Shown here: positions 1-64,000 of the stretch, piece by piece
Position numbering within the stretch: position 1 is the stretch's first letter
How the letters are laid out: every line of letters starts with the position of its first letter
NCBI GenBank assembly: GCA_015494465.1
Contig: WGBD01000004.1
Span: forward strand, 132,627 to 196,626
Length of the DNA: 64,000 bases
Reading direction: 5' to 3'
Source: Candidatus Omnitrophota bacterium
GTDB lineage: Bacteria > Omnitrophota > Gorgyraeia > S143-82
Notes under the pieces: model-generated
The model's database searches: none
Told to the model about the DNA's origin: nothing
What the model saw: the letters and a program-made list of their open reading frames with translations, nothing else
Program-made: the position numbers and the translations under genes

Positions 1-3000
1 CAGAGATGGCTACCTTTATCCCACCCAATCCCTGGCGACTGTAGTCTTCCACGATATACAGATCGAAGCCCTTTAGAGACAGGCTCCCCGTGGGGCGCTT
101 TACTGCGTAGTGGGATACCTTCCTCAAGGCCACGACCTTGCCGACATTTCTCCAGGCCCTAAGGGGTTTAAAGGCCTCCAGGGCAACCCGGTTTGGGGTC
201 AGGAGGAACAAGGCCTCCGCCTCTAATCCTTTGACCCATCGGTTACCTATCCGGTAGAACCTATCGTCCCCTGGATCTGGTAGCTCCATCCTGACAGGTA
301 GCACCCAACCTGCCAATCTCTCCCTCGTTGGGAGCCCTAGCCCGTACACCAGCAGGCCTCCCTCCGGAGAGACCCGCCCCACCTCGTTCACCTTCAGACG
401 CCCGAGCCCTCGCTGGGGGCCTGCTTCCTCTCGAGATCTTCCTCTAGTCCATCCCCTCAACTCCACCCGACGCCTGGGTAAGGCCAACTTCTCGGTCTTG
501 AAGGCAGGGAACTTCAGGTGCTCTACTGCCAAGGCGAATACGGGGTGCATACCGGTGAAGTCCTTTTCAGGATGCGGTGCGGTGATCTCACCCGCCGGCC
601 CACGAATCGGGGACCTAAACGCCAGGAGGCCTGCCCCCTTGGGATTGTCCAGATAGAGGACCGGGAGGGTCCTCCCAGCGACCACGATCGGTATGTAAAC
701 GAGCCTTTGACCTTTGTGTACGAGGACACTGGGGGAGAAGGGCGTACTGGTCGGACCTTCTCCCGCCCGGTAGCTGGTGTAGATCCGGCGCAAGACCGGG
801 GCCAGGTTAAGGGTCTCCCGCTTCCCCAGAGAGACCAACCGCCCCTCGTAAAGCAGGCCTCGACCTTCGGGCGTAAGGCGCCAACCGATCACTTTACCGC
901 GTCCCCTTACCTCCTCCACCCTAGCAGAAGTGCTGAACCAGCGAGGATAGCGGGAAAAGACCGTGGGGAGGCCGGTCAGAGGCAGGTTAGATCGGCCTAT
1001 CTCCTCCACGCCCACCACCTCTGGATTCATCTTCTGGTAGGCGACATCCACGACCTTATCCGGGTCCAAGCGGGGATTTATAGCCACATACCACCTACCC
1101 ACACCGTCCTTGGAGAGCAGGTAGGGCATACCCGGAGGAGCGGACAACGAACCACCCGGTCCCGCTATCCTAGGCCTGTCGGGATAGTGGTAGATCCAGA
1201 ACCTCCTATCCCCTAACCGGCGCGCAGTGATCTTAACCGGAGACAGGGACTTATCTGAGAAGGTGAATCTCCCCTTTCCCCGGTCGAATCGACCGTAGGC
1301 CAGGTAGAAGTAGTTGAAGACATCTCTTTTGCCCTCGACTCGGTAGAAGTCGGGGACGAGCTTCCGGACGCCATTCCGATCAACGGCCACTACCTCTCTG
1401 CCCCAATCGAACGGGCTCTTATCGGTGGAGTTGTCCACGAGGACCCGTACCTCTTTGACATCTTTGCCCAAGCGCTCTATTCTCTCCGGGAACAGGTAGG
1501 CCAGCACGATCTGATCCGTCGATGGCCTGCTAGCTTTGGACAACCGACGGGCGTAATCTATACGGATCTGCCCAGAATTCGCCTTTAATAGGAGCCCGTT
1601 AGGGGTCTCCTCTAGCTTCACCGGCACCTTAGGACGGGGCAGGGACGCAGGAAGCGGTTTCTTCAGGAGGGCAGACCTTACGGTCATAAGGGTAAGCATC
1701 CTTTCTTTATAGTGATCCGGGACTGGATGCCTGGTAGCGAAGAGCAGATCCACGGGCAAGGCGTAATCCCAGCTATTCTTTTGGATCCTGACGAATCTCA
1801 CCCCGCTGGAGACGATCGCACGCACATCATAAATGTCCCGGGTAAAGTCGAAGAATCGAGGCAGGAAGTCCCTCACATCCACGATGGCCTTGGTCCTGGC
1901 ATCCGGTATCAACATCTGGGCTAAGGCATCAGCGCGTTCAGCCAACTGCTCCCGTCTCCCCACCGTCACCCGCAGATCTCTCCCCGGATAGCTCACCAAC
2001 AGACCTCGAGAGGCCTCGTCGACGACCGCCAATATCCGCGTGCGGGTAACGGGATCCATTGCGGAAAAGGCCCACAGGTCCCCAGCCCGATTGGTAAGCT
2101 CCCAAGTCACCAGCCGATCGTCCTGGTGTAGGCGGTTTATCGCCTTCACCACCGTAGAGTCACCCTTTGCGGAGATAGCCCCTCGATCCAGGTCCACCCC
2201 AACCGCCTGATTGAGGGCGTCGAACTCCCTAGATAGGAACCTATTGGTATTGGGATTGTAAAGCAGTCGCACCATGTAGGAGCTATCCCACGGATTGCGG
2301 TTCACATAGAGGGGATGGAGCTCCATCAACCCTGAGCGTTTGTAGCCCTCCATAATAAACCTCTGGTCCTTAAACTGCAACCTTCGATAAGACCTCTCCC
2401 CTCCTACCAGCCTTCCCAGAGGTCCCCACTCCAGGGCAGACTCGAGCCCAGTTAGCGCAGAGGATTCCAGTAGATTGGCCTGACGAGAATAGAGATAAGA
2501 GCGATAGTCGTAGAGTATCCTGACATCCCTCCAATCCCCGCCTTTTAGATCCTTCACCTTTCTCACATTGAAGGGATAGTCCAACAGCCCCCAATCCCTC
2601 CAGCTGTCCAGCTCCAGTGCGGTATAGGCGTACTCTGATGCGTACGGCCCCTGACCCAACTGGAAGAACTGGGCGACCTCGTTCCTACTGCAAGCCAAAG
2701 CGTACTCCTTGAACCCAGGGCTGTTGAGGACTGCCTCTGCCAGATTCTGGACCGGCCTGCCTCGCCAGGCGTCGTAAGGCAGTTTTAGCATGTGCAAGAG
2801 AGACGAATGCCTATAGAACTCCCGCCCGAAGCGGGTCTCTTCTATCCCGTCGAGACCTGCTTTGATTCCAGCCCCTAGGGCGTATAGGGTGTCCGCCACC
2901 GCAAAGCCGAATAAGGACCGATTGAGAGGATCGTCTATTCCCACCGCGTCCGCCAACTCGTTTAGGCCCAAGGCGATACCTGCCTTGGCCAACGAGGAAC

Positions 3001-4474
3001 TAAATGTCCTAACGAGGTCCTGTCGCCTGCCGTAGAGCGTAGCGTAAGTAGCGCTAGTGAGGATCGGGCTGAGGTACTGGGAGTACTGCAAGGCCTTCTT
3101 GCTTCCGGTGAGCTTGGCCAGCCCGATGGAGCTCCCGACCACGACAGCGGTAGGCAAGGCCTGATACACCGCCTCCCGCAAAGAGAACCATCCTGCGGAC
3201 AGGCCAGAGATTCCCTCGAGGTTGACATCGTCTATTCCCAAGATCCTACCGACCGGATCGGAATAGAGGTGGGATGTAGTGGAGATCTCCTGGCCCAGAT
3301 CCTCCAATCCCAGACGGGAGTAGAGATCGGTAGAGGAGAAGAGGGCAGAGCTAATACCGCTCGCGACTATCCCTGCAGACAGAGAGGTCAACATGCGAGC
3401 ACCGTATCTGGTGATCGCGCTGTCGTACTTGGAGTAGTCAAACAACGCCTTCTCCAACCCCACGCTGACCCCAGCGGTAAGTGCTCCCCGCAGTGATCCC
3501 ACCCCCAATCCCTGGAAAAATCCCTTTAGACCACCCTTAAAGGCCCACTTGTGCCCGAGGAAGGAGACCTTGGCCCCCATCGACCCCGCCAAGGCGGTGC
3601 GAAACGCGGTGCTAGAGAGCATACTCGAGAATTGGACCAGCGCAGGGCTCGCGCCTGCGCTCTGGAGGAGTTCTCCTGCGATGTTGGAAAGGTTACCCGC
3701 TATCAGGCTGGTAGTGAAGCTTTGGGAAAAACTGAGACCGGAGACCGGGAAGAAGGTAGCCCCCACGAAGGCGGATCCCAAACTCAATCCCAAGGACTTT
3801 AGGGTGTCCTTAAACGATGTCCCAGGGAGGAGCTCGTCTATGTCCAGGGCATCTTTTGGCCCTTCGCGTCTGTAGCCACCTCTTATCCGACCGGGGGACT
3901 CTATGGGTCCTATACCCTCGACGATCACCCATCCTGACCAGGTTTCCAGAAATTCCTTCCAGGCCAGTCCCCGCTCCTCTCCCCCGTCCCACACCCATAT
4001 CTTATCAGGGCCCACCCTTTCGACTACCAGATAATGGGCCGGGGACATGTGGACCAAAAACCGCAGAGAATCGTGAATCCTCTCTCGGAGGAATCCCCTC
4101 TTATCCCTAACCCTAAAGAGGCTCAAGGGGCGTCTGTGCTTCAGGGCCAAGAGGTAGACCGAGGACAAGAGCACGCTGAAAGGATCCCGATCCCCAACCC
4201 GTCTGTCGAGCTGATCCAAGAACAGGGCAGTTTCCTTATCATCCAAACCCAGGAATCTGGCCAAGGCCTGAGAGGCACAATTGGACCTCACCGAGTGATC
4301 CCCAAAAATCACCGGACGCCCCGGTCCCCTTAACGAATAAGACGATGTCCAGGCGATCTGATCAAAGGCCAAGAGCAGGGCCATCGACAGACACAAGGCC
4401 CTCTCCAACAGCCCGGATCTATAGGACGAAGACACCCCGCTTGCGATTTTTTCTTTTTCCCTCATCTCGAGCAT
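1..4474 (-). CDS. Giant hypothetical protein (over 1490 aa, 3' end beyond the left window edge). The N-terminus is a papain-like C39-like cysteine peptidase domain (Peptidase_C39_2/BtrH-like), followed by a long Gly/Ser/Ala/Leu-rich region.
   Basis: Hand translation of the minus strand from ATG 4474 (MLEMREKEK; second ATG at 4465) runs to position 1 with no stop. It is absent from the ORF track because there is no in-window stop. An in-frame TAG lies just upstream of ATG 4474. Motifs ...HSVRSNCASQALARFLG... (candidate catalytic Cys) and ...AHYLVVERVGPDKIWVWDGG... (candidate catalytic His) resemble C39-like peptidases. Confidence 0.6.
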   Translation of the reverse strand, partial: MLEMREKEKIASGVSSSYRSGLLERALCLSMALLLAFDQIAWTSSYSLRGPGRPVIFGDHSVRSNCASQALARFLGLDDKETALFLDQLDRRVGDRDPFSVLLSSVYLLALKHRRPLSLFRVRDKRGFLRERIHDSLRFLVHMSPAHYLVVERVGPDKIWVWDGGEERGLAWKEFLETWSGWVIVEGIGPIESPGRIRGGYRREGPKDALDIDELLPGTSFKDTLKSLGLSLGSAFVGATFFPVSGLSFSQSFTTSLIAGNLSNIAGELLQSAGASPALVQFSSMLSSTAFRTALAGSMGAKVSFLGHKWAFKGGLKGFFQGLGVGSLRGALTAGVSVGLEKALFDYSKYDSAITRYGARMLTSLSAGIVASGISSALFSSTDLYSRLGLEDLGQEISTTSHLYSDPVGRILGIDDVNLEGISGLSAGWFSLREAVYQALPTAVVVGSSIGLAKLTGSKKALQYSQYLSPILTSATYATLYGRRQDLVRTFSSSLAKAGIALGLNELADAVGIDDPLNRSLFGFAVADTLYALGAGIKAGLDGIEETRFGREFYRHSSLLHMLKLPYDAWRGRPVQNLAEAVLNSPGFKEYALACSRNEVAQFFQLGQGPYASEYAYTALELDSWRDWGLLDYPFNVRKVKDLKGGDWRDVRILYDYRSYLYSRQANLLESSALTGLESALEWGPLGRLVGGERSYRRLQFKDQRFIMEGYKRSGLMELHPLYVNRNPWDSSYMVRLLYNPNTNRFLSREFDALNQAVGVDLDRGAISAKGDSTVVKAINRLHQDDRLVTWELTNRAGDLWAFSAMDPVTRTRILAVVDEASRGLLVSYPGRDLRVTVGRREQLAERADALAQMLIPDARTKAIVDVRDFLPRFFDFTRDIYDVRAIVSSGVRFVRIQKNSWDYALPVDLLFATRHPVPDHYKERMLTLMTVRSALLKKPLPASLPRPKVPVKLEETPNGLLLKANSGQIRIDYARRLSKASRPSTDQIVLAYLFPERIERLGKDVKEVRVLVDNSTDKSPFDWGREVVAVDRNGVRKLVPDFYRVEGKRDVFNYFYLAYGRFDRGKGRFTFSDKSLSPVKITARRLGDRRFWIYHYPDRPRIAGPGGSLSAPPGMPYLLSKDGVGRWYVAINPRLDPDKVVDVAYQKMNPEVVGVEEIGRSNLPLTGLPTVFSRYPRWFSTSARVEEVRGRGKVIGWRLTPEGRGLLYEGRLVSLGKRETLNLAPVLRRIYTSYRAGEGPTSTPFSPSVLVHKGQRLVYIPIVVAGRTLPVLYLDNPKGAGLLAFRSPIRGPAGEITAPHPEKDFTGMHPVFALAVEHLKFPAFKTEKLALPRRRVELRGWTRGRSREEAGPQRGLGRLKVNEVGRVSPEGGLLVYGLGLPTRERLAGWVLPVRMELPDPGDDRFYRIGNRWVKGLEAEALFLLTPNRVALEAFKPLRAWRNVGKVVALRKVSHYAVKRPTGSLSLKGFDLYIVEDYSRQGLGGIKVAIS

Positions 4475-4627
4475 TGGGTATAATCTCTAATCAGCAAGCA
4501 AATTCTTGATTAACATTTTAAAATCTTTAAATAATATCACAGTCCGAGGCCGTTTTCAAGTCGGCTCCGCCTCCGCTTCCCTAATTCCTTGACAACCAAC
4601 GACCTATGTGATAGGCTAGACTCGCAT

Positions 4628-17602: not shown

Positions 17603-17675
17603 GAGCGGGCGACGGGACTCGAACCCGCGACGTCGAGCTTGGGAAGCTCGCATTCTACCAACTGAATTACGCCCG
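17603..17675 (-). tRNA. tRNA-Gly (anticodon CCC).
   Basis: Reverse complement folds as GCGGGCG-TA-ATTC-AGTTGGTA-GAAT-G-CGAGC-TTCCCAA-GCTCG-ACGTC-GCGGG-TTCGAGT-CCCGT-CGCCCGC-T. Anticodon loop is TTCCCAA and the discriminator is U. CCA is not encoded. Confidence 0.85.
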
Positions 17676-17733
17676 CACATCAATTCTGAACGCACTAAAA
17701 TTATACATCAAAGCGGTCAAGATTTGTAGTCCA

Positions 17734-21677: not shown

Positions 21678-22067
21678 TGGTGGAGGTGCGGGGAATCGAA
21701 CCCCGGTCCCTGTCGCCGACCTCGGTGAGGCCCTACATGCTTAGCCATCCTTTTGATCTTTCCGGATAACCAGCCGGATGGCGGGCCGATTATCCGGGCA
21801 GCCCTTTCCTACCGATCGGGATACAAGGGCGAACTCTCCCGACGGGCGGTCTAGGCCGACCGTCACCTTACCCCGACCGCGAAAGTAAGGCAACGGGCCT
21901 GGCTCGTATTAGGCCAGGGCAAGGGCAGAGCCATTAGCAATGGCCTCTGCCTCAGCGATCAGTGCATCGTCGGCACTTATTTGCCACGGGTTTTTTACGA
22001 GGCCACCCGTACCTCGGCATGCACCTCAACCAAGGCCTTTCAGCGCAGGTCGAGTCCGTACACCCCC
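21678..22067 (-). ncRNA. ssrA: tmRNA (ssrA).
   Basis: Reverse complement begins GGGGGTGTACGGACTCGACCTGCGCTGAAAGGCC...GGTGCATGCCGAGG...GGCCTCGTAAAAAACC and ends GGGGTTCGATTCCCCGCACCTCCACCA. It aligns closely to the E. coli tmRNA 5' tRNA-like domain, pseudoknot 1 and T-arm/acceptor/CCA. The internal reading frame ends ...GSALALA-TAA. Confidence 0.9.
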
Positions 22068-56740: not shown

Positions 56741-58558
56741 CTACTTCTCTCTCAGGTAGCTGTCGATACCCTCAGCGGCCTTTTTACCGTCAGCCACCGC
56801 AGAGATGGCATCCCGGACCGAGTTGCCTATGTCACCACCAGCAAAGACCCCCTCCACCGTGGTCATCATACGCTCGTCCAGTTTGACCCGGGAGCCGACC
56901 CACTGTATCTTTTCCTTAATGGCGTCAGGGGTGAAGGACAGGTCTGCGCCCTGACCGACCGCCTCTATCACCGTATCCGCAGGGATCTCTACGGCGTCGT
57001 TTTCGTCGAAGCTGGGATTGAACTTACCAGATTCATCCCTTAACCTCAGCACCTTGTAGGCCCTAAAACCGACCACCTTGCCGTTCTTTACCAGGATCCC
57101 TTCCTTGCCCCGAGGGGCACCTCTCTTCACCTCGAATTTAACCCCCTCTTCCAAGGCCTCCTCAATCTCCTCTTTAAAGGCAGGCATCTCGTCCCAATCT
57201 TCCAAACAGACTACCGTTGCATTCACCTCACCGTAGGTGATCATCTGGAGCCTCAGGGCACTCCTAACCGCATCCATTGCTACATTCCCTCCACCGATGA
57301 CGACCACACGCTTGCCGATCTCGACCTTCTCTCCCATCCTCAGCTTGCGCAAGAAGTCCACAGCCTGCCACACCCCTTCCGCAGACTCGTTGGCTACACC
57401 TGCCTTGAGCCCCACTTGCAGACCGCAGGCCAAGTAGACCGCATCGTAATCCTTCAAGAGATCCTCGAAGTTGACATCCTTGCCCACCTCAACGCCGGTC
57501 TTAATGTTCACGCCTATTGCCTCTATGAGGCTCACATCCTTACCTATCACATCGTTAGGCAGTCGATAAGCGGGTATACCGTAGCGGAGCATACCCCCCA
57601 CTTCCTCGTTCTTCTCGAAGACATCCACATCGTAACCCATCCTCCTCAAGTAGAAAGCACAGCTCAATCCACTGGGCCCCGCACCAACTATAGCCACCTT
57701 CTTACCCAATGACTGGGACGGTTTAAACTCCTCCACCAACTTGTCGTAGTCTACCTGCTTAACCGCGTAACCCTTGAGGTACATAATCTGGAGGGAATCA
57801 CCCCGCAACGATATCGCACAATTGTCCTGACAACGATGGGTACATATAGTACCACACACTCCCGAAAGCGGGTTGTCCTCCAACATTATCCTCACCGCAC
57901 TTTCGTATCTCTCAAAGTATATCTCACGAATGTAGTCGCCTATTTTCATCCTAGCAGGACAACCGAGACGACACACATCGCACTCCATACAACGCATCGC
58001 CTCTTGGAGGGCCCGTTCCCGATCGTACCCAGTGGTGATCAACTCGAAGCCCTTCTTCCTCTCCTCCGCAGGTAGTATCTCCACTGGCACCGCATCCACA
58101 TGGAATATAGAGGTCTCAGGAGAAGACTGCCACCCCTTGTTCTCTAGTCCGGCCTTATCCGGTTGGAAGTAATAGACATCCGGATCGTAAGATATCCAGG
58201 TAAATTCCTTAGTCATTGCAAGCGATCCGCTAGGGCAAACATCCACACATAGCGCGCAAAAACAGCACCTACCGTAATCCATCCAAGGCCTTTGGGGTTT
58301 TCTCCCTGGCATCTCTTTGGGCAAAGAGGGATCTTCCACCATAGTAATCGCCGAAGTCGGACAGATGTCCGCACAATTCCCGCAACCTATACACTTATCC
58401 AGATCGTTAGTGTGGAAACCCCGATATCTCGGTGAGACCTCCTTTTTTTCCGAAGGGATCTTCACCGTTATAGGACGCTGGAAGAGAAACTTTATCGCCA
58501 GTAAAGGCTCCAAAAGGGACTTGCCGTGATCGTAATAGAGGTACTTCTTTTCAGCCAT
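56741..58558 (-). CDS. FAD/NAD(P)-dependent oxidoreductase with an N-terminal 2x[4Fe-4S] ferredoxin domain (glutamate synthase small-subunit-like).
   Basis: CIGCGNCADICP and CCFCALCVDVCP; a GltD-type CDVCRLGCP cluster; VAIVGAGPSGLSCA and VVIGGGNVAMD Rossmann motifs. Confidence 0.75.
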   Translation of the reverse strand: MAEKKYLYYDHGKSLLEPLLAIKFLFQRPITVKIPSEKKEVSPRYRGFHTNDLDKCIGCGNCADICPTSAITMVEDPSLPKEMPGRKPQRPWMDYGRCCFCALCVDVCPSGSLAMTKEFTWISYDPDVYYFQPDKAGLENKGWQSSPETSIFHVDAVPVEILPAEERKKGFELITTGYDRERALQEAMRCMECDVCRLGCPARMKIGDYIREIYFERYESAVRIMLEDNPLSGVCGTICTHRCQDNCAISLRGDSLQIMYLKGYAVKQVDYDKLVEEFKPSQSLGKKVAIVGAGPSGLSCAFYLRRMGYDVDVFEKNEEVGGMLRYGIPAYRLPNDVIGKDVSLIEAIGVNIKTGVEVGKDVNFEDLLKDYDAVYLACGLQVGLKAGVANESAEGVWQAVDFLRKLRMGEKVEIGKRVVVIGGGNVAMDAVRSALRLQMITYGEVNATVVCLEDWDEMPAFKEEIEEALEEGVKFEVKRGAPRGKEGILVKNGKVVGFRAYKVLRLRDESGKFNPSFDENDAVEIPADTVIEAVGQGADLSFTPDAIKEKIQWVGSRVKLDERMMTTVEGVFAGGDIGNSVRDAISAVADGKKAAEGIDSYLREK

Positions 58559-58671
58559 ATCTCACCCCTGAATCTAAGAATCCCACTGACTCACACCATC
58601 CCTAAAAATTGGCTAATATTATATACCCGATAAAAAAAAATTTAAACCAAATCTGCGCATCATCCTAGCGG

Positions 58672-58938
58672 TTATAGGATGTACACGAAAATCCCTCCCA
58701 ATAAACCGCCGATAACTCCCCATCCCGCAATCCCGGCCACCTTTCTCCACTTTGGATTCCCCGGTTTCAATATTTCTATCTTTTTCACATAGATTATTTC
58801 GCACCCCTTGTCATCTCTGGTCGTACTCGTAGGGCGATAGCCGGACCACGGCTTGAGAGTGATCTTTTCCAGGCGCAGAAATCCGTCTCTACCTACTCCC
58901 CTCACGAGTCTATAGTTGCATAGCAAACCCTTGATCAA
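58672..58938 (-). CDS. Small protein with a C-terminal glycine-zipper transmembrane segment.
   Basis: 88-aa ORF with a TTG start. AGIAGWGVIGGLLGGIFVYIL is glycine-zipper-like. It may be a shifted continuation of the upstream gene. Low-GC region. Confidence 0.25.
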   Translation of the reverse strand: MIKGLLCNYRLVRGVGRDGFLRLEKITLKPWSGYRPTSTTRDDKGCEIIYVKKIEILKPGNPKWRKVAGIAGWGVIGGLLGGIFVYIL

Positions 58939-58949
58939 TATCTGATCAC

Positions 58950-59447
58950 CTACCCGAACGAAAGTATTTTTCGGGCTATATCTTCGTCGTCAGTCAGGAG
59001 GTGATTATTTGAGAAACCTCGCATATCAAATGCCTCGCTATAATACCTTACCCACCCCGTCCAGTCTCCATGGGAATATCTCGCCTCCAGATATGGTCCC
59101 TTTAAGTTGTCCCCGTATACCAGTGAAAAATCAGCTATGTTCAGTGTATCGCCCGAATCCCTATGGCTGATGTCTATCCACGAATTGCTGTGATGAAGGG
59201 AGACGACCAGACCGTATATAGTGTAATCGTAAAGGGCAACGACTTCGTATTCGTCTCCTTCCACACTCTTTAATACGAACTTCATTGGTGTTATCCTTAC
59301 CTGTCTCGGCCAAGAATATAACTGAGGCAGGATTTCGTTCTTACCCGGCAAGGCCTTGGGCTTGATACTGGCAGGGATATATATCACCATACACGCGAGC
59401 CCGCTAATAAAGACTATTCTTCTGACGAATTTGATAAGTTTGACCAT
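58950..59447 (-). CDS. Hypothetical membrane-anchored or secreted protein.
   Basis: N-terminal hydrophobic segment (IVFISGLACMVIYI). Stop is TAG. Lies immediately downstream of lgt. Confidence 0.4.
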   Translation of the reverse strand: MVKLIKFVRRIVFISGLACMVIYIPASIKPKALPGKNEILPQLYSWPRQVRITPMKFVLKSVEGDEYEVVALYDYTIYGLVVSLHHSNSWIDISHRDSGDTLNIADFSLVYGDNLKGPYLEARYSHGDWTGWVRYYSEAFDMRGFSNNHLLTDDEDIARKILSFG

Positions 59448-59450
59448 GGA

Positions 59451-60233
59451 CTACCTTTCTCTATCTTTCTTCTCTTGCTTTCCCCAAATATCCCTCAGCC
59501 CCGCGGAAAACACAAGAATCCCTATCAATGAGAGCCACTGAAACAAGGTTAACCCCAATATGTGTGGACTAACACGCAAAAACTCCTCAAAGAACCTAAA
59601 GCCGAAATAAGTTATACCGAAAATCACAAACAATTCTCCCGGCCTTGCGGTTTTTCTTTTACTCATAAGGTAAAGAAATAACCCCAACATAAACACCGAT
59701 TCGTACAGTTGTGTGGGATGTCTCAGCACACCGTCTCCGAAGTCAACTCCCAGACGACATCCTGTGGGCACTCCGAAGCAACACCCCCTAAAGAAGCATC
59801 CCAAACGCCCTATTGCAATGCCTATAGCAAGGGCAGGGGCAAAAAGATTCCCAAATCTTTCTCTTACCCCAACGCCGGCTTTCACCACCTTTGCCCCGAA
59901 GGTACCTCCCAAAATTCCCCCGGTCATGGTACGGGAAGAAAACAATGAAAATGGCAGAGTAGTAAAAAATTGCCTTATATTCAATAGATTGGCAAACAAA
60001 ACTGCGCCCAGGATTCCACCAAAAATCGACCCAAAGGCCACTAGCGGTGGCCTCCAATCATCACTCGAAATTCCACCCTCCTTCTTAAGAAACAAATATA
60101 CGAAAATGCCCACCGCAAACCCTAGCCCACTAAAGAACGGATAGGAATATATGTGGATTCCACCTATAGAAAAAAGGATAGGTCCTACTCCCCGATAGGA
60201 GACGCCTTCTGGAACATAATGAAAATCCAGCAT
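59451..60233 (-). CDS. lgt: Prolipoprotein diacylglyceryl transferase.
   Basis: Lgt signature GRLGCFFRGCCFG and the HPTQLYES motif. Polytopic. Stop is TAG. Confidence 0.8.
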   Translation of the reverse strand: MLDFHYVPEGVSYRGVGPILFSIGGIHIYSYPFFSGLGFAVGIFVYLFLKKEGGISSDDWRPPLVAFGSIFGGILGAVLFANLLNIRQFFTTLPFSLFSSRTMTGGILGGTFGAKVVKAGVGVRERFGNLFAPALAIGIAIGRLGCFFRGCCFGVPTGCRLGVDFGDGVLRHPTQLYESVFMLGLFLYLMSKRKTARPGELFVIFGITYFGFRFFEEFLRVSPHILGLTLFQWLSLIGILVFSAGLRDIWGKQEKKDRER

Positions 60234-60234
60234 A

Positions 60235-60507
60235 CTACTGCACCATTTGGAGGCCTACTGCGTATATTCCCAATGTAATACAAGCCCCCATCAACAACAC
60301 CCAAGGCAAGGCAAGATAAACCACACCCCACAACCAAGCACGATCATACTCTTTAGCTTTTACATAGCGATAAATCTTGTATCCAACAAACATGGTCATT
60401 AAAAATACTACCCCCAAAACAAGGGCTGAAATCACATTTCTATACACTGGAGAGTAAGGAGAGCCCGCCGAAAAAAAGTCCGATCCAATCAAAACCAACG
60501 AAAGCAC
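60235..60507 (-). CDS. Small integral membrane protein.
   Basis: 90 aa with three predicted transmembrane helices. Stop is TAG. Confidence 0.35.
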   Translation of the reverse strand: MLSLVLIGSDFFSAGSPYSPVYRNVISALVLGVVFLMTMFVGYKIYRYVKAKEYDRAWLWGVVYLALPWVLLMGACITLGIYAVGLQMVQ

Positions 60508-60596
60508 CTAAGAAATATATAAATAGATAAAAACCGCAAGACTTAAAATAGCCAAACCAATCATCTTTAAGACCTTATTCATATTATCCACCTCCC

Positions 60597-61250
60597 TTAA
60601 AATATCCTTGGTATAAACATTCCAACCTTCTCCCTATAGACCTTGTATTCGGGAAATCTCTCCATAAGCACAGTTTCCTCTTCTCTCGCCCTATAGTACA
60701 TCGTAGACACAAACACAAAACTGGTAAGTAAGAAGGCGATCCAATTGGAATACACAAAAGAGGCCCCATAAAACATCCATATCAGAAATGCATAGAGTGG
60801 ATGACGGACAATTCGGTAAACACCGGTACTCACCAAAGAGTGGTCCTGATAGACCTTTATATGGGTCAGACCATCTTCGTCCTAAAGAAATCCTTCCCAA
60901 TATATTAACTACGGCCCCTATAACCAAAAGGCCAGCTCCTATAACACACAAAACACCGTATATGTACCAAGGCAAAGGACTACAATTACATAAAATACAA
61001 AGAAAAACAAAAACATCGTAGCAGTCGCTACTACGGATTTCTTTTCAAGGACAAAATCACGCCTTCGATTGTACTTCAGGAAATCCCAAAATACCGCTAC
61101 CATCACTGCCATAGTGCTGAGGGAACAAACCCATCGGTTGGCTATACAAACAAGCGCTAAAGCAGAAGTTTTCACTTTCTCCCTCGGTGCCACATACTGT
61201 AAACAGAAAATGATATCCGCTTTAGGTCCGTAGTAATGATATGCACACAT
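60597..61250 (-). pseudogene. Isoprenylcysteine carboxyl methyltransferase (ICMT)/phospholipid methyltransferase-family gene broken by two frameshifts.
   Basis: Three overlapping ORFs in different frames (60939..61250, 60691..60975, 60597..60836). The last carries LVSTGVYRIVRHPLY...EE..L...F..Y..Y (the ICMT C-terminal signature). The middle carries ILGRISLG. A TAA lies just upstream of the C-terminal piece in its own frame. Confidence 0.45.
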
Positions 61251-61519
61251 TCCTTTTGGGCTGACTTTACATCAAAATTATACCTGTCTAAGAAAGTGGT
61301 TATCGTCAGAGGAAAGATGTGTTCATTGACATGTTCTATCTTCTTTGATTTTGGCCAAAGAAGAAAATCCTCTGGGAGGAAGGAAAACGCCTTTTTCAAA
61401 AATTCATCACTGATCTTTGGTCCACAGCAACTGCAGGCAAATCCCCTTTTTAGTATATCCTCTAAATCAAAGGCAAAGGTATTGTCTATGTCATCCAAAT
61501 ACTCGGCAACATCCACCAT
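61172..61519 (-). CDS. Hypothetical protein.
   Basis: 115-aa ORF containing a CSCCG motif. Low-GC region. Confidence 0.3.
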   Translation of the reverse strand: MVDVAEYLDDIDNTFAFDLEDILKRGFACSCCGPKISDEFLKKAFSFLPEDFLLWPKSKKIEHVNEHIFPLTITTFLDRYNFDVKSAQKECVHIITTDLKRISFSVYSMWHRGRK

Positions 61520-61572
61520 ATCAGCTATTGAGAAGGTATTACCCTACGCATCCTTAAACAAAAACGAAACAG

Positions 61573-62550
61573 CTACACGCTCAACATTGCACGCAAGCGG
61601 GAGGATACCACCTGTTTAAAGGCATCCGGCATCGTAGAATAGATATGCTCCACCACACCGGAAAGGGTAACCCTGTTAAGCCTCTTTACATCTTGGATTC
61701 TCCCCGAATAACACACAGGCTGGATATTTACTCCCCGAATAAAGTTCTCCTCCATTGCAACCCTAATAACATCTTTTATATCATTCTCATTAACTCCCCT
61801 TGCAACCCTCATTACCAAGGTCATTGGCACTTGTGCCTTCTGCAGGTTTCTTATTGCCTGCCTCTTTTCCCTAAGCAGATTTTCCCCTCGCAAAAACTCA
61901 TTTGCCTTTGCACCAAAACCGTCAAACTGCAGATACACCTCAAATCCGCCATCCCTTGCTATCTCCCCTAATGCCATAGCAAATGAAAGCTCTCTTGCAA
62001 TCCGCAGGCCATTTGTATTGAGTATCACATAATTGACTTTCAATTTCTTTATTCTGGAGATAATATCCAGTATATCAGGATGCATCGCAGGCTCGCTGCC
62101 GCTTATCTGCACGATCTCTGCCTTCCCACCTTCTGCCTCAACAAAAAACCGCGTCATTTCCAATACTTTCTCAACCGAAAGAAAACCTTCCTGCTTTTTA
62201 GACTATACATAACACACAAGACAACCCAAATCACATCCGTCGGCTACCTCAATAATGCCGATACAGCTATGCTGTTCGTGCTGAGGGCAAAGCCCGCAGT
62301 CAAACGGGCATCCACTCTCCAGCTCTGTCTGGGCCAAAATGCGGTTGCCGGGCTTGTCGTATCTTCTTCTGTGAAGCTAATACGGCAGGTATTCCTCTAA
62401 CAGGTCTATCTGCTGCCCGCACTCTGGGCAATGCCTGAGCAGATATGCCTCATCATTTTGTAGGATAATCTTACCTGGCAGTACCGCCAGACAATTCGGG
62501 CACAGGCAAACCGTTGCTTCGTGATATGTATAATCGCGTAATTCCTGCAT
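61573..62550 (-). pseudogene. Zinc-ribbon radical SAM enzyme (resembles the Tes/MJ0619-type radical SAM family) interrupted by two in-frame TAG codons.
   Basis: A single frame reads MQELRDYTYHEATVCLCPNCLAVLPGKIILQNDEAYLLRHCPECGQQIDLLEEYLPY-TAG(62377-62379)-LHRRRYDKPGNRILAQTELESGCPFDCGLCPQHEQHSCIGIIEVADGCDLGCLVCYV-TAG(62203-62205)-SKKQEGFLSVEKVLEMTRFFVEAEGGKAEIVQISGSEPAMHPD... It contains two CxxxCxxC motifs and a GGE-like ISGSEP motif. A TGA lies immediately upstream of ATG 62550. Confidence 0.5.
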
Positions 62551-62673
62551 TCAGTCCTCTTACTCTAAAGGATAGCCTTTCTACCATCCTAAAACTCCAC
62601 GGCCTAAGTCCCGGGGACAGGTGGTCTGTTAAAATGCGATTTCTCAAAGATCTCTCATTACCCCATTATCGGG

Positions 62674-62910
62674 TCATAAATATAACTTCTCCTGAGCTAT
62701 TTCTGATAGTGTGTTAAATGGGTCATCTAAAGAGGTAAAAATACGATCTTCACCCTCTTTCTGCGCTTCTGCTTTTCTAATCACCTTTTCAACCTCTTCA
62801 TAAGATATGCCCATTTCACCCATCAAATCCAACGCCTTACCTGAATAGAGTCGCCCGTTTATTATTTTTGGCTTATGAGGAGAAAACCTTCCAACTGGGG
62901 TTCTGTACAT
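62674..62910 (-). CDS. Small hypothetical protein (possibly DUF4258-like).
   Basis: 78 aa; GKALDLMGEMGISYEEVEKVI weakly resembles DUF4258. Confidence 0.25.
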   Translation of the reverse strand: MYRTPVGRFSPHKPKIINGRLYSGKALDLMGEMGISYEEVEKVIRKAEAQKEGEDRIFTSLDDPFNTLSEIAQEKLYL

Positions 62911-63479
62911 TCCGGCTTAGTACAAGACAGGGTTATAGCATCATCGCTGGCGCCCGGCAAAGAATCAGGCTTTCTCCCCAAGACATAACACTGCCATACA
63001 GAAACAGAGAGAAGCGCTAAAGGCCCACCCTGTTGTGGATGGGGATTTTTCTCAAAATGCCAACCAATCACAAGCCCATCACTTCTGTAGACAATATCAT
63101 CTCTTTCCCTCATTACTTTCTGCAATCTTATCCATTGCAGAAGTTCTTTTACAGAGCAAAAATGCTGTTGCCCCTCTTCCATATTTACCAGCATACCTTT
63201 AATTTCTGTGGGATAATACCCTCCCAAACTTCCATACCACCTTGACATCCTTGGCCACAAATTTATCTTTACTTCTTTCCCATCCCACTTAATCTGTCTT
63301 CCAACAGCGCCTACAGCCCTTATTTCTATCGCACCATTTTTGTTTGTTGCAGTAATGCGTATACCATCCGTCATTGCTGGTTCTTTGATAACTAAACCTA
63401 CCCTGTGAAAAAGGCCTCCACTTTTTGCCAAGAAATGCAACGCGACAGATAGCACAATAACAGCCACCAAGCAACTCAC
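62862..63479 (-). CDS. Hypothetical membrane-anchored protein.
   Basis: N-terminal transmembrane helix (MSCLVAVIVLSVALHFL). No recognisable domain. Confidence 0.35.
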   Translation of the reverse strand: MSCLVAVIVLSVALHFLAKSGGLFHRVGLVIKEPAMTDGIRITATNKNGAIEIRAVGAVGRQIKWDGKEVKINLWPRMSRWYGSLGGYYPTEIKGMLVNMEEGQQHFCSVKELLQWIRLQKVMRERDDIVYRSDGLVIGWHFEKNPHPQQGGPLALLSVSVWQCYVLGRKPDSLPGASDDAITLSCTKPECTEPQLEGFLLISQK

Positions 63480-63543
63480 ACCAAGTATAATGATCCTCTT
63501 ATCTCAGATGTTCATTGCACACCTCTTTTAGAGAAACCTCATT

Positions 63544-64000
63544 TTATAACCCTGCTTTACTGCGCGAAAGCAAGTTATCACTACTTATCTCTCGGCTTGT
63601 ATCCAAGAGTAAAACGAGTTTTATCTGCCCATCTTTTACTATAGGATAAAAAGAACGAATAGCATAGCTGTCTACTACGGTAAACGGAGTCTTGTTTTTT
63701 AGCATTTCACCAAATTTTTCCTTTTCTTTATACCGTGGGATAAACAATTTCGTGAGGGAATCGGAAACAGGTGTCGTATCCTTATAATCGCATTCCCAAG
63801 GCGTAATCTCATAAAAGACGAGCCGTCCTTCTTCTTTCTTGGGAATCAAGAGGCTAATAGCCCTTACATTTTCCTCCAGTGAAAGCAACAATTCGTCCCT
63901 CACAAAGTATAATTTGCCAATCGCTGCATTTTGATCAATAATGTCCAGCAAACGCTTCACCAACCGAGAGCCGGCAATGTCTCCTAATTCCTGTTCAATT
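63544..64000 (-). CDS. Hypothetical protein, probably 5'-truncated by the right window edge.
   Basis: The reading frame stays open upstream of the TTG at 63963 all the way to position 64000. Confidence 0.35.
   Translation of the reverse strand, partial: IEQELGDIAGSRLVKRLLDIIDQNAAIGKLYFVRDELLLSLEENVRAISLLIPKKEEGRLVFYEITPWECDYKDTTPVSDSLTKLFIPRYKEKEKFGEMLKNKTPFTVVDSYAIRSFYPIVKDGQIKLVLLLDTSREISSDNLLSRSKAGL

What the first reader, a model, noticed from the sequence alone, without database searches (positions are those of the whole stretch)
61573..62550. Radical SAM gene whose conserved frame is interrupted by two in-frame TAG codons
One continuous frame encodes an N-terminal CxxC...CxxC zinc ribbon, two CxxxCxxC motifs (GCPFDCGLC, DGCDLGCLVC) and the ISGSEPAMHPD SAM-binding motif. 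The frame has exactly two stops, both TAG, at 62377-62379 and 62203-62205, and no frameshift. The N-terminal pattern (T.SLCPECL...HCPEHG; CGLCP.H.QHTC) resembles the MJ0619/Tes-like radical SAM family. The likeliest explanation is recent pseudogenisation. TAG is a genuine stop in neighbouring genes here (lgt, fhs, and the ORFs at 58950 and 60235). Two identical nonsense codons with an otherwise intact frame could also mean programmed readthrough or a sequencing artefact.
Basis: seen in the sequence. Interest (0 to 1): 0.55.

Follow-up and report, generated by a model that had tools for sequence, protein, structure and literature searches.

The report
Dead Tes-like radical SAM gene
This is an ordinary broken gene: a lipid-enzyme-like radical SAM gene with three TAG stops, a one-base deletion and damaging substitutions, flanked by equally broken neighbours, so the TAG codons are decay and not a special genetic code.

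Summary
The two in-frame TAGs (62377-79, 62203-05) and the Cys motifs are real, but the gene is longer and more damaged than reported. It runs 62550..61172 on the minus strand. It also has a 1-nt deletion (61612-14), a third TAG (61544-46) and substitutions at four columns invariant in 119 homologues, including the SAM-binding GGE glycine (ISGGEP to ISGSEP). Intact orthologues of 464-468 aa exist in Omnitrophota MAGs and read W, S and R/Q at the three TAG sites. All three neighbouring genes compared are broken too: the upstream 285-aa gene (TGA, -1, -7), the downstream ICMT/PEMT methyltransferase (-19, +1) and a small membrane protein (TGG to TAG). The sequence is identical in three assemblies. 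TAG is the commonest genuine stop in the window, and it accounts for 49-60% of one-step nonsense paths in this gene, so three TAGs out of three is unremarkable (P about 0.12-0.22). A sister genome has deleted the whole cassette. Verdict: recent pseudogenisation inside a decaying low-GC region; there is no recoding and no artefact. In passing, intact relatives define an apparently undescribed cassette: Tes-fold radical SAM, ICMT/PEMT, DUF4395 and an Lgt-like gene.

The parts
61172..62550 (-). Pseudogene of a Tes/TrsS-like radical SAM enzyme, about 459 codons once 1 nt is restored. Domains: rubredoxin-like Zn ribbon, N-terminal cluster motif, radical SAM core, C-terminal domain.
   Evidence: It aligns end to end with the intact P0001 (83%) and P0002 (77%).
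62377..62379 (-). In-frame TAG 1 (codon 58). Orthologues have TGG (Trp), so this is a G>A change.
62203..62205 (-). In-frame TAG 2 (codon 116). Orthologues have TCG (Ser), so this is a C>A change.
62095..62097 (-). Codon 152, AGC (Ser). All 119 homologues have Gly here, in the GGE SAM-binding motif (ISGGEP).
61612..61614 (-). Site of a 1-nt deletion in a G-run (a -1 frameshift). It creates the false gene end at 61573.
   Evidence: it is the only internal indel against both L005 and L006. Coordinates.
61544..61546 (-). In-frame TAG 3 (codon 336 in the restored frame). Orthologues have CGA (Arg) or CAA (Gln).
60597..61175 (-). Pseudogene of the cassette's ICMT/PEMT-family membrane methyltransferase. 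A 19-nt deletion near 60976 and a 1-nt insertion near 60865 put about 37 codons out of frame.
   Evidence: Pfam PEMT/ICMT hits on the intact L005 orthologue.
60235..60585 (-). Small membrane protein gene of the cassette, with an in-frame TAG at 60508-60510. L005 has TGG (Trp) there.
62669..63515 (-). Pseudogene of a 285-aa protein of unknown function. Lesions: TGA at codon 4 (63504-63506), a 1-nt deletion in a C-run near 62901, and a 7-nt deletion near 62703.
   Evidence: The region is 95.6% identical in nucleotides to the intact L005 gene.
59451..60233 (-). Lgt-like gene, the last cassette member. It is still intact: 260 aa, 69% identical to the L005 orthologue.
   Evidence: It scores 61 bits against a TIGR00544 cutoff of 118.9.
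61951..63547 (-). Block recently shared with the L005 lineage. It is 89-96% identical in nucleotides, with third codon positions 80-92% identical, whereas the rest of the cassette is 67-85% identical.
59451..64000 (.). The in-window part of a 7.2-kb stretch that is absent at the orthologous site of a sister genome. It continues to about 66,627 in extended window coordinates. GC is 41-48%, against 50-60% for the rest of the window.

Best explanation
The locus is a recently inactivated pseudogene of a Tes-fold radical SAM enzyme. The gene belongs to a four-gene cassette: radical SAM, ICMT/PEMT methyltransferase, a small membrane protein (DUF4395 in distant homologues of the cassette), and an Lgt-like transferase. 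The cassette sits in a low-GC region that has been rearranged by recombination. In this lineage the cassette is no longer needed. Selection relaxed, and ordinary mutations accumulated in four consecutive genes: base substitutions that happen to give TAG, short homopolymer indels and larger deletions. No full-length enzyme can be made. The first TAG stops translation after the 57-residue Zn ribbon, before any iron-sulfur cluster motif. The TAGs are terminators, as they are in the neighbouring genes. Shown directly: the lesions, the intact orthologues, the broken neighbours, the agreement between assemblies and the deletion in the sister genome. Inferred: the order of events, dispensability as the cause, and the enzyme's former lipid-related role.
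For: 1. Intact orthologues of 464-468 aa exist, and the fragments align to them colinearly.
2. Besides the two reported TAGs there is a third TAG and a 1-nt deletion.
3. The three TAG sites are W (TGG), S (TCG) and R/Q (CGA/CAA) in the orthologues. These are three different residues at variable columns.
4. The window deviates at 4 of the 62 columns invariant in 119 homologues: G152S, P320A, R414P and P447S.
5. Substitutions polarised with L006 as outgroup give N:S of 55:44 on the window branch and 34:45 on the L005 branch. In the recently shared 5' 200 codons the figures are 13:8 and 5:9. The neutral expectation is 2.4:1.
6. All three neighbouring genes compared are broken: the 285-aa gene (TGA, -1, -7), the ICMT/PEMT gene (-19, +1) and the small membrane protein (TAG).
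7. Apart from this region, the window is filled with long unbroken open reading frames of up to 2116 codons.
8. The sequence is 100% identical in the NCBI MAG contig, an ENA scaffold and a Logan contig.
9. TAG ends 21 of 53 greedily chosen ORFs of at least 100 codons, including fhs (516 aa) and the 605-aa gene. Both have the same length in the sister genome.
10. Three TAGs out of three has P of 0.12-0.22.
11. The sister genome (L093) keeps only about 16 codons of the radical SAM gene and has lost the rest of the cassette.
Against: The overall pN/pS on the window branch is 0.34, well below 1. The N:S contrast with the sister branch is not significant on its own (Fisher P=0.13). Inactivation must therefore be recent, or the branch is mostly pre-inactivation history. 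All Cys/His cluster ligands are still present. Four of the five nonsense codons in the region are TAG, a mild skew (my own binomial estimate: P about 0.19-0.34 at p=0.5-0.6). The Lgt-like gene is still intact. The raw reads and the rest of the genome were not examined. The three assemblies may derive from the same reads.
Confidence: 0.93

Rival explanations
1. The TAG codons are decoded, either as pyrrolysine, by a suppressor tRNA(CUA), or by programmed readthrough, so a full-length enzyme is still made.
For: All three stops in the gene, and a fourth in the small membrane protein gene, are TAG. They fall at variable columns that might tolerate any residue. All metal-ligand cysteines are retained. 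The closest NCBIfam model (TrsS) is a selenoprotein family, which shows that recoding occurs in this clade, although there it uses UGA.
Against: Readthrough cannot repair the 1-nt deletion at 61612-14, the -19/+1 lesions in the ICMT/PEMT gene, or the TGA, -1 and -7 lesions in the 285-aa gene. The orthologues have W, S and R/Q at the three sites, not a conserved TAG. An invariant glycine of the GGE motif and three other invariant residues are lost. TAG terminates 21 of 53 ORFs, and fhs and the 605-aa gene match the lengths of their homologues. No tRNA(CUA) is present in the window. The sequence after each TAG differs: CTT, TCT and GGT.
Confidence: 0.02
2. The stops and indels are sequencing or assembly errors, for example homopolymer miscalls or a chimeric strain consensus, and the real gene is intact.
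For: Three of the indels lie in short homopolymer runs: a G-run in the radical SAM gene and C-runs in the 285-aa and ICMT/PEMT genes. The genome is a MAG, and the region is a mosaic.
Against: Three assemblies made by different pipelines (NCBI MAG, ENA scaffold, Logan contig) are 100% identical over 5-15 kb. The lesions include substitutions and deletions of 7 and 19 nt, which are not homopolymer errors. At least 11 lesions are confined to about 3.3 kb, while the other 58 kb of the window shows no broken frames. The many nonsynonymous changes at invariant sites are not error-like.
Confidence: 0.03
3. A strand-specific G-to-A hypermutation process, such as a DNA deaminase toxin, killed the region and produced TGG-to-TAG stops.
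For: G>A is the commonest change polarised to the window branch, 31 of 99, against 11 C>T. Two of the four TAGs in the region arose by TGG>TAG.
Against: In the recently diverged 1.6-kb block, G/A differences to L005 are symmetric (22 against 20). The G>A contexts show no preferred dinucleotide. The coding strand is simply G-rich, with 446 G against 261 C. The indels are not explained by this process.
Confidence: 0.01

Closest known systems
Tetraether lipid synthase Tes / GDGT-MAS (MJ0619; PDB 7TOL, 7TOM; NCBIfam NF045702)
   Same: Homologous over nearly the full length (phmmer E=1e-60). The AlphaFold model of the intact orthologue (pLDDT 90) superposes on 7TOM at TM 0.84/0.79, whereas every other radical SAM structure matches only the core at TM 0.39 or below. 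The domain order is the same: rubredoxin-like domain, N-terminal CxxxCxxC..H cluster motif, radical SAM CxxxCxxC, C-terminal domain.
   Different: About 27% identity. It scores 222-314 bits against a curated cutoff of 450, so it is not called Tes. The Omnitrophota copies have CPEC where Tes has CPEH. The C-terminal Cys set (LPLPC, CxC, KEC) differs from the 7TOL alignment. It lies in a cassette with ICMT/PEMT, DUF4395 and Lgt-like genes that is not reported for Tes. The window copy is dead.
Radical SAM (seleno)protein TrsS (NCBIfam NF045646)
   Same: It is the best-scoring curated model: 264 bits for the window translation and 299-364 bits for intact relatives, with full-length alignment for P0062 and P0013.
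   Different: The score is below the cutoff of 490. TrsS recoding uses UGA for selenocysteine, whereas the interruptions here are UAG at non-conserved W, S and R/Q positions. No in-frame TGA is present.
Pyrrolysine-encoding genes with in-frame UAG (for example the methylamine methyltransferases mtmB, mtbB and mttB)
   Same: In-frame UAG inside a conserved reading frame, in an anaerobe-type genome where UAG also serves as a stop.
   Different: In Pyl genes the UAG is conserved across orthologues at a catalytic position and there is one per gene (established knowledge). Here there are three UAGs at positions that are ordinary sense codons in the orthologues, plus a frameshift. No tRNA(CUA) is present in the window.
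Bacterial pseudogenes in decaying or horizontally exchanged regions
   Same: Multiple independent disabling lesions, relaxed constraint, neighbouring genes decaying in parallel, atypical GC, an integrase fragment nearby, and complete deletion in a relative.
   Different: Nothing essential. The only particular feature is that the gene is a mosaic: its 5' 600 nt was recently exchanged with another Omnitrophota lineage.

Membership tests
Radical SAM superfamily (PF04055) | A CxxxCxxC cluster motif and a domain score above the Pfam gathering threshold | tested here: met
   C106-x3-C110-x2-C113 is present. The conceptual translation scores 63.8 bits against 29.5.
Radical SAM superfamily (PF04055) | An intact GGE SAM-binding motif | tested here: not met
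   The window has ISGSEP. All 119 homologues have ISGGEP.
Tes / GDGT-MAS (NF045702) | Score at or above the curated equivalog cutoff of 450 bits | tested here: not met
   222.6 bits for the window; 270.6, 296.8 and 314.2 bits for the intact P0001, P0062 and P0013.
Tes / GDGT-MAS (NF045702) | The four-domain fold of PDB 7TOL/7TOM | tested here: met
   The model of orthologue P0001 (pLDDT 90.3, pTM 0.91) matches 7TOM at TM 0.84/0.79, E=1.5e-38. The test was run on the intact orthologue, not on the pseudogene.
Tes / GDGT-MAS (NF045702) | Catalyses C-C coupling of lipid tail termini | not testable with these tools
   This needs biochemistry or lipidomics. The window copy cannot be active in any case.
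TrsS radical SAM selenoprotein (NF045646) | Score at or above the curated cutoff of 490 bits | tested here: not met
   264.2 bits for the window; 299.3 to 363.6 bits for intact relatives.
TrsS radical SAM selenoprotein (NF045646) | An in-frame UGA (Sec) codon | tested here: not met
   There is no in-frame TGA in the restored frame apart from the terminal stop.
Pyrrolysine / UAG-recoded gene | UAG conserved at the same position in orthologues | tested here: not met
   The orthologues have TGG, TCG and CGA/CAA.
Pyrrolysine / UAG-recoded gene | tRNA(CUA) and pylSBCD present in the genome | tested here: inconclusive
   ARAGORN finds only tRNA-Gly(CCC) and tmRNA in the 64-kb window. The rest of the MAG, including the remainder of the 782-kb contig, could not be searched.
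Pyrrolysine / UAG-recoded gene | The frame is otherwise intact once UAG is read through | tested here: not met
   A 1-nt deletion at 61612-14 is seen against both orthologues.
Pseudogene | Intact orthologues exist, and the locus carries at least one disabling lesion relative to them | tested here: met
   Three nonsense codons and one frameshift against P0001 and P0002.
Pseudogene | Relaxed purifying selection | tested here: inconclusive
   The trend is in the expected direction: N:S of 55:44 against 34:45, and 13:8 against 5:9 in the recently shared part. Four invariant columns are lost. However, the Fisher test gives P=0.13.
Pseudogene | The lesions are real and not assembly artefacts | tested here: met
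   The sequence is identical in three assemblies. Read-level support was not testable.
   61.2 bits for window 59451-60233, and 76.8 bits for the Mangrovibacterium cassette copy. Pfam LGT is hit.

The most novel reading that the evidence does not exclude
The dead gene is a relic of an apparently undescribed but widespread four-gene membrane cassette: a Tes-fold radical SAM enzyme, an ICMT/PEMT-type methyltransferase, a DUF4395 membrane protein and an Lgt-like diacylglyceryl transferase. The cassette was found next to every radical SAM homologue of at least 47% identity that had enough flanking sequence (14 of 14). These include Omnitrophota, CPR bacteria, Clostridia, Syntrophomonadaceae, a deltaproteobacterium and a Methanosarcinales MAG. 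It was also found in 3 of 3 loci looked up separately, among them a Bacteroidota locus (Mangrovibacterium). In living hosts it might build C-C cross-linked (membrane-spanning or macrocyclic) glycerolipids or modified lipoprotein anchors. That would bear on the open question of which bacteria and which enzymes make membrane-spanning lipids. The window itself shows only that the cassette is dispensable in this lineage.
Probability: 0.3. Interest if true: 0.55.

Novelty: new member of a known kind. Interest (0 to 1): 0.12.

Why it matters
For the finding as posed, it matters little. It is a textbook decaying gene, and it shows that runs of identical stop codons can arise by chance when one stop type dominates the one-step mutational paths (49-60% TAG here). 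Annotators should mark 62550..61172 as one pseudogene, not as three or four small ORFs. Existing gene calls split it into products of 57, 194 and 115 aa. The useful by-product is the conserved cassette of a Tes-fold radical SAM enzyme with ICMT/PEMT, DUF4395 and Lgt-like genes. It gives a concrete, testable candidate set for bacterial lipid-tail chemistry. Its loss here, by decay in one genome and by deletion in the sister, indicates that it is accessory and not essential.

Tried and rejected
1. Global or local TAG reassignment: rejected. TAG ends 21 of 53 ORFs, with lengths that match homologues. The TAG sites are W, S and R/Q in the orthologues.
2. Selenocysteine-type recoding, suggested by the TrsS hit: rejected. 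There is no in-frame TGA, and the scores are below the cutoff.
3. G>A deaminase hypermutation: rejected. The differences are symmetric (22 against 20) and show no context bias.
4. A statistical anomaly in three identical stops: rejected. P is 0.12-0.22.
5. Assembly artefact: rejected as far as it could be tested, because three assemblies are identical.
6. A generally poor assembly or a gene desert at window 1-4600: rejected. That stretch is one 1495-codon ORF running off the window start.
7. A search for closer relatives that might carry an intact copy of this allele in JGI metagenomes found only two distant hits at 26-27% identity.
8. Literature searches for the cassette (DUF4395; radical SAM with ICMT and Lgt; tetraether synthase with Lgt) found nothing relevant.
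9. The TrsS literature amounted to a table entry in a review, with no function given.
10. Rfam found only tmRNA and one tRNA in the window.
11. The promoter and terminator scan of the region was uninformative: 4 promoter-like sites against 8.6 expected.

Full report
**Observation.** On the minus strand, an ATG at 62550 opens a frame with TAG at 62377-79 and 62203-05 and no other stop until 61573. The conceptual product has the Pfam HMPTM-type zinc ribbon (E=4e-11) and a Radical_SAM domain (63.8 bits against a cutoff of 29.5). The best NCBIfam models are TrsS (264 bits, cutoff 490) and Tes (222 bits, cutoff 450), so it is a relative of both and a member of neither.

**The gene is longer and more damaged than reported.** A protein search found intact homologues: P0001 (464 aa, 83% identity), P0002 (468 aa, 77%), P0003 (55%) and thousands at about 45%. 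Aligning them shows that the downstream ORF 61172-61519 is the C-terminal part of the same gene. A three-way DNA alignment with the two closest orthologues shows a single internal indel. These orthologues come from Candidatus Omnitrophota MAGs (L005/L001 and L006). The indel is a 1-nt deletion in a G-run at 61612-14. In the restored frame there is a third TAG at 61544-46, and the gene ends at TGA 61172-74, overlapping the GTGA start of the next gene.

**Nature of the lesions.**
- TAG1 derives from TGG (Trp), TAG2 from TCG (Ser), and TAG3 from CGA/CAA (Arg/Gln). These are three different residues at variable columns, so they are not a conserved recoding site.
- In 119 homologues, 62 columns are invariant. 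The window deviates at four of them: G152S (the GGE SAM-binding motif, ISGGEP to ISGSEP), P320A, R414P and P447S.
- Polarising substitutions with L006 as outgroup gives 55 nonsynonymous and 44 synonymous changes on the window branch, against 34 and 45 on the L005 branch.
- In the 5' 200 codons, which are recently shared with L005, the figures are 13:8 against 5:9.
- The neutral expectation is 2.4:1.
- The trend fits recent relaxation but is not significant alone (Fisher P=0.13).

**Is 'all TAG' unusual?** No. In the ancestral-like sequence, TAG makes up 91 of the 185 one-step nonsense paths (49%). Weighted by this lineage's spectrum the share is 60%. Three TAGs out of three therefore has P=0.12-0.22. 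About 2.3 nonsense changes are expected among 99 neutral substitutions.

**Neighbours.** Three more genes, the upstream neighbour and the next two downstream, are broken relative to L005.
- The upstream 285-aa gene has TGA at codon 4 (63504-06), a 1-nt deletion in a C-run near 62901, and a 7-nt deletion near 62703, at 95.6% nucleotide identity.
- The downstream ICMT/PEMT-family methyltransferase has a 19-nt deletion near 60976 and a 1-nt insertion near 60865, which shift about 37 codons.
- The small membrane protein has TGG>TAG at 60508-10.
- Only the Lgt-like gene (59451-60233) remains intact.

Elsewhere the 64-kb window is filled with long unbroken ORFs of up to 2116 codons, and bases 1-4500 form one 1495-codon ORF. 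The damage is therefore local and not a matter of assembly quality.

**Artefact?** The window is from GCA_027052805.1, contig JALUEM010000002.1 (782 kb). An ENA scaffold (ERZ23495249) and a Logan contig (SRR10312501) are 100% identical across the region. They may share reads, but three pipelines agree. Deletions of 7 and 19 nt and nonsense substitutions are not typical sequencing errors.

**Recoding?**
- TAG ends 21 of 53 greedily chosen ORFs of at least 100 codons.
- Among them are fhs (516 aa) and the 605-aa oxidoreductase, whose lengths equal those of the sister genome's proteins. The closest Fhs clade is 514-519 aa.
- No tRNA(CUA) is present in the window.
- Readthrough could not repair the frameshifts.
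- A G>A hypermutation idea was tested and rejected: the G/A differences are 22 against 20, with no context bias.

**Genomic context and history.**
- The last 6 kb of the window is 41-48% GC, against 50-60% elsewhere. L005's genome is 38-48% GC.
- Against a sister genome (L093, Fhs 92% identical, flanks about 83-85% nucleotide identity), a 7.2-kb stretch is missing. It corresponds to window 59451 to about 66,627 in extended coordinates.
- At the junction the sister keeps only about 16 codons of a radical SAM N-terminus (VQEVRDYTYHEATLCP), right after a hexapeptide-repeat gene. L006 has the same gene order.
- The window's genome also keeps a short second remnant (MQALRDYMYQI*) at that spot, followed by a DUF2089 gene and an rve integrase fragment.
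- Within the radical SAM gene, nucleotides 1-600 are 89-96% identical to L005 (third codon positions 80-92%). The rest is 75-85% identical, no closer to L005 than to L006.
- I infer that an L005-like segment recombined into a native cassette, after which the hybrid decayed. The sister lineage deleted the cassette outright. Both outcomes indicate that the cassette is dispensable in this clade.

**What the gene was.**
- P0001 matches PDB 7TOL (GDGT-MAS/Tes of M. jannaschii, MJ0619) at E=1e-60.
- Its AlphaFold model (pLDDT 90.3, pTM 0.91) superposes on 7TOM at TM 0.84/0.79. Other radical SAM structures match only the core, at TM 0.39 or below.
- Tes couples lipid tail termini through radical chemistry that uses an auxiliary cluster (PMC13459092; PMC8941075).
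- The subfamily here is tied to a cassette. ICMT/PEMT, DUF4395 (or a small membrane protein) and an Lgt-like gene follow the radical SAM gene in 14 of 14 loci with at least 47% identity and enough sequence, across several phyla. They almost never follow the homologues at 41% identity or below.
- The Lgt-like protein scores below the Lgt cutoffs.
- I found no paper describing this cassette.
- A lipid or lipoprotein-anchor modifying role is an inference from the family memberships only.

**Verdict.** The description needs correcting for the frameshift, the third TAG, the true 3' end and the mutated GGE motif. The finding is ordinary, and interest is low. The cassette is the only item worth carrying forward.

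Noticed in passing
window 59451-62550; loci L005-L021, L085-L088: A conserved cassette: Tes-fold radical SAM, ICMT/PEMT methyltransferase, DUF4395 or a small membrane protein, and an Lgt-like transferase, often followed by an ORF of about 100 aa. It was present in 14 of 14 close-homologue loci across Omnitrophota, CPR, Clostridia, Syntrophomonadaceae, a deltaproteobacterium and a Methanosarcinales MAG, and in 3 of 3 loci looked up separately, including a Bacteroidota locus. It is largely absent next to more distant homologues. No literature was found.
   Followed up: partly
It is part of the cassette and is probably not the housekeeping Lgt. The gene call held for the NCBI contig (L091) gives 196 aa for it, whereas the calls on the ENA and Logan contigs give 260 aa.
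   Followed up: partly
window 60508-60510 (-), gene about 60585..60235: A fourth in-frame TAG in the region. The small membrane protein gene has TAG where L005 has TGG (Trp).
   Followed up: yes
window 62669-63515 (-): The upstream 285-aa gene has no Pfam or NCBIfam hit. It is 95.6% identical in nucleotides to its L005 counterpart but is broken by TGA at codon 4, a 1-nt deletion and a 7-nt deletion.
   Followed up: yes
window 61951-63547 against L005 3333-4932: Recombination mosaic. The 5' 600 nt of the radical SAM gene plus the upstream gene are 89-96% identical to another Omnitrophota lineage, while the 3' part, the ICMT/PEMT gene and the Lgt-like gene are only 67-85% identical.
   Followed up: yes
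window 58000-64000; L091 1-11000: A low-GC region (36-48%) in a genome of about 54% GC. A 7.2-kb stretch is absent from the sister genome L093, which keeps only about 16 codons of the radical SAM gene. An rve integrase fragment and a second short radical SAM N-terminal remnant lie just beyond the window end (L091 about 2800-3950).
   Followed up: partly
window 1-4500 (-): This stretch looks gene-free in the ORF list, but only because a 1495-codon ORF runs off the window start.
   Followed up: yes
window 21678-22067 (-) and 17603-17676 (-): A tmRNA (tag peptide ADDALIAEAEAIANGSALALA) and tRNA-Gly(CCC) are the only RNA genes detected.
   Followed up: no
window 59300-64000: There are 12 terminator-like hairpins against 4.6 expected from shuffles, several of them inside the decayed genes. 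The significance is unknown.
   Followed up: no
L006 2660-3173: In the Omnitrophota M10 MAG, a PhdYeFM/ParE toxin-antitoxin pair is inserted between the radical SAM and ICMT genes, and a HicAB pair lies upstream. This shows that the locus is a hotspot for insertions.
   Followed up: no
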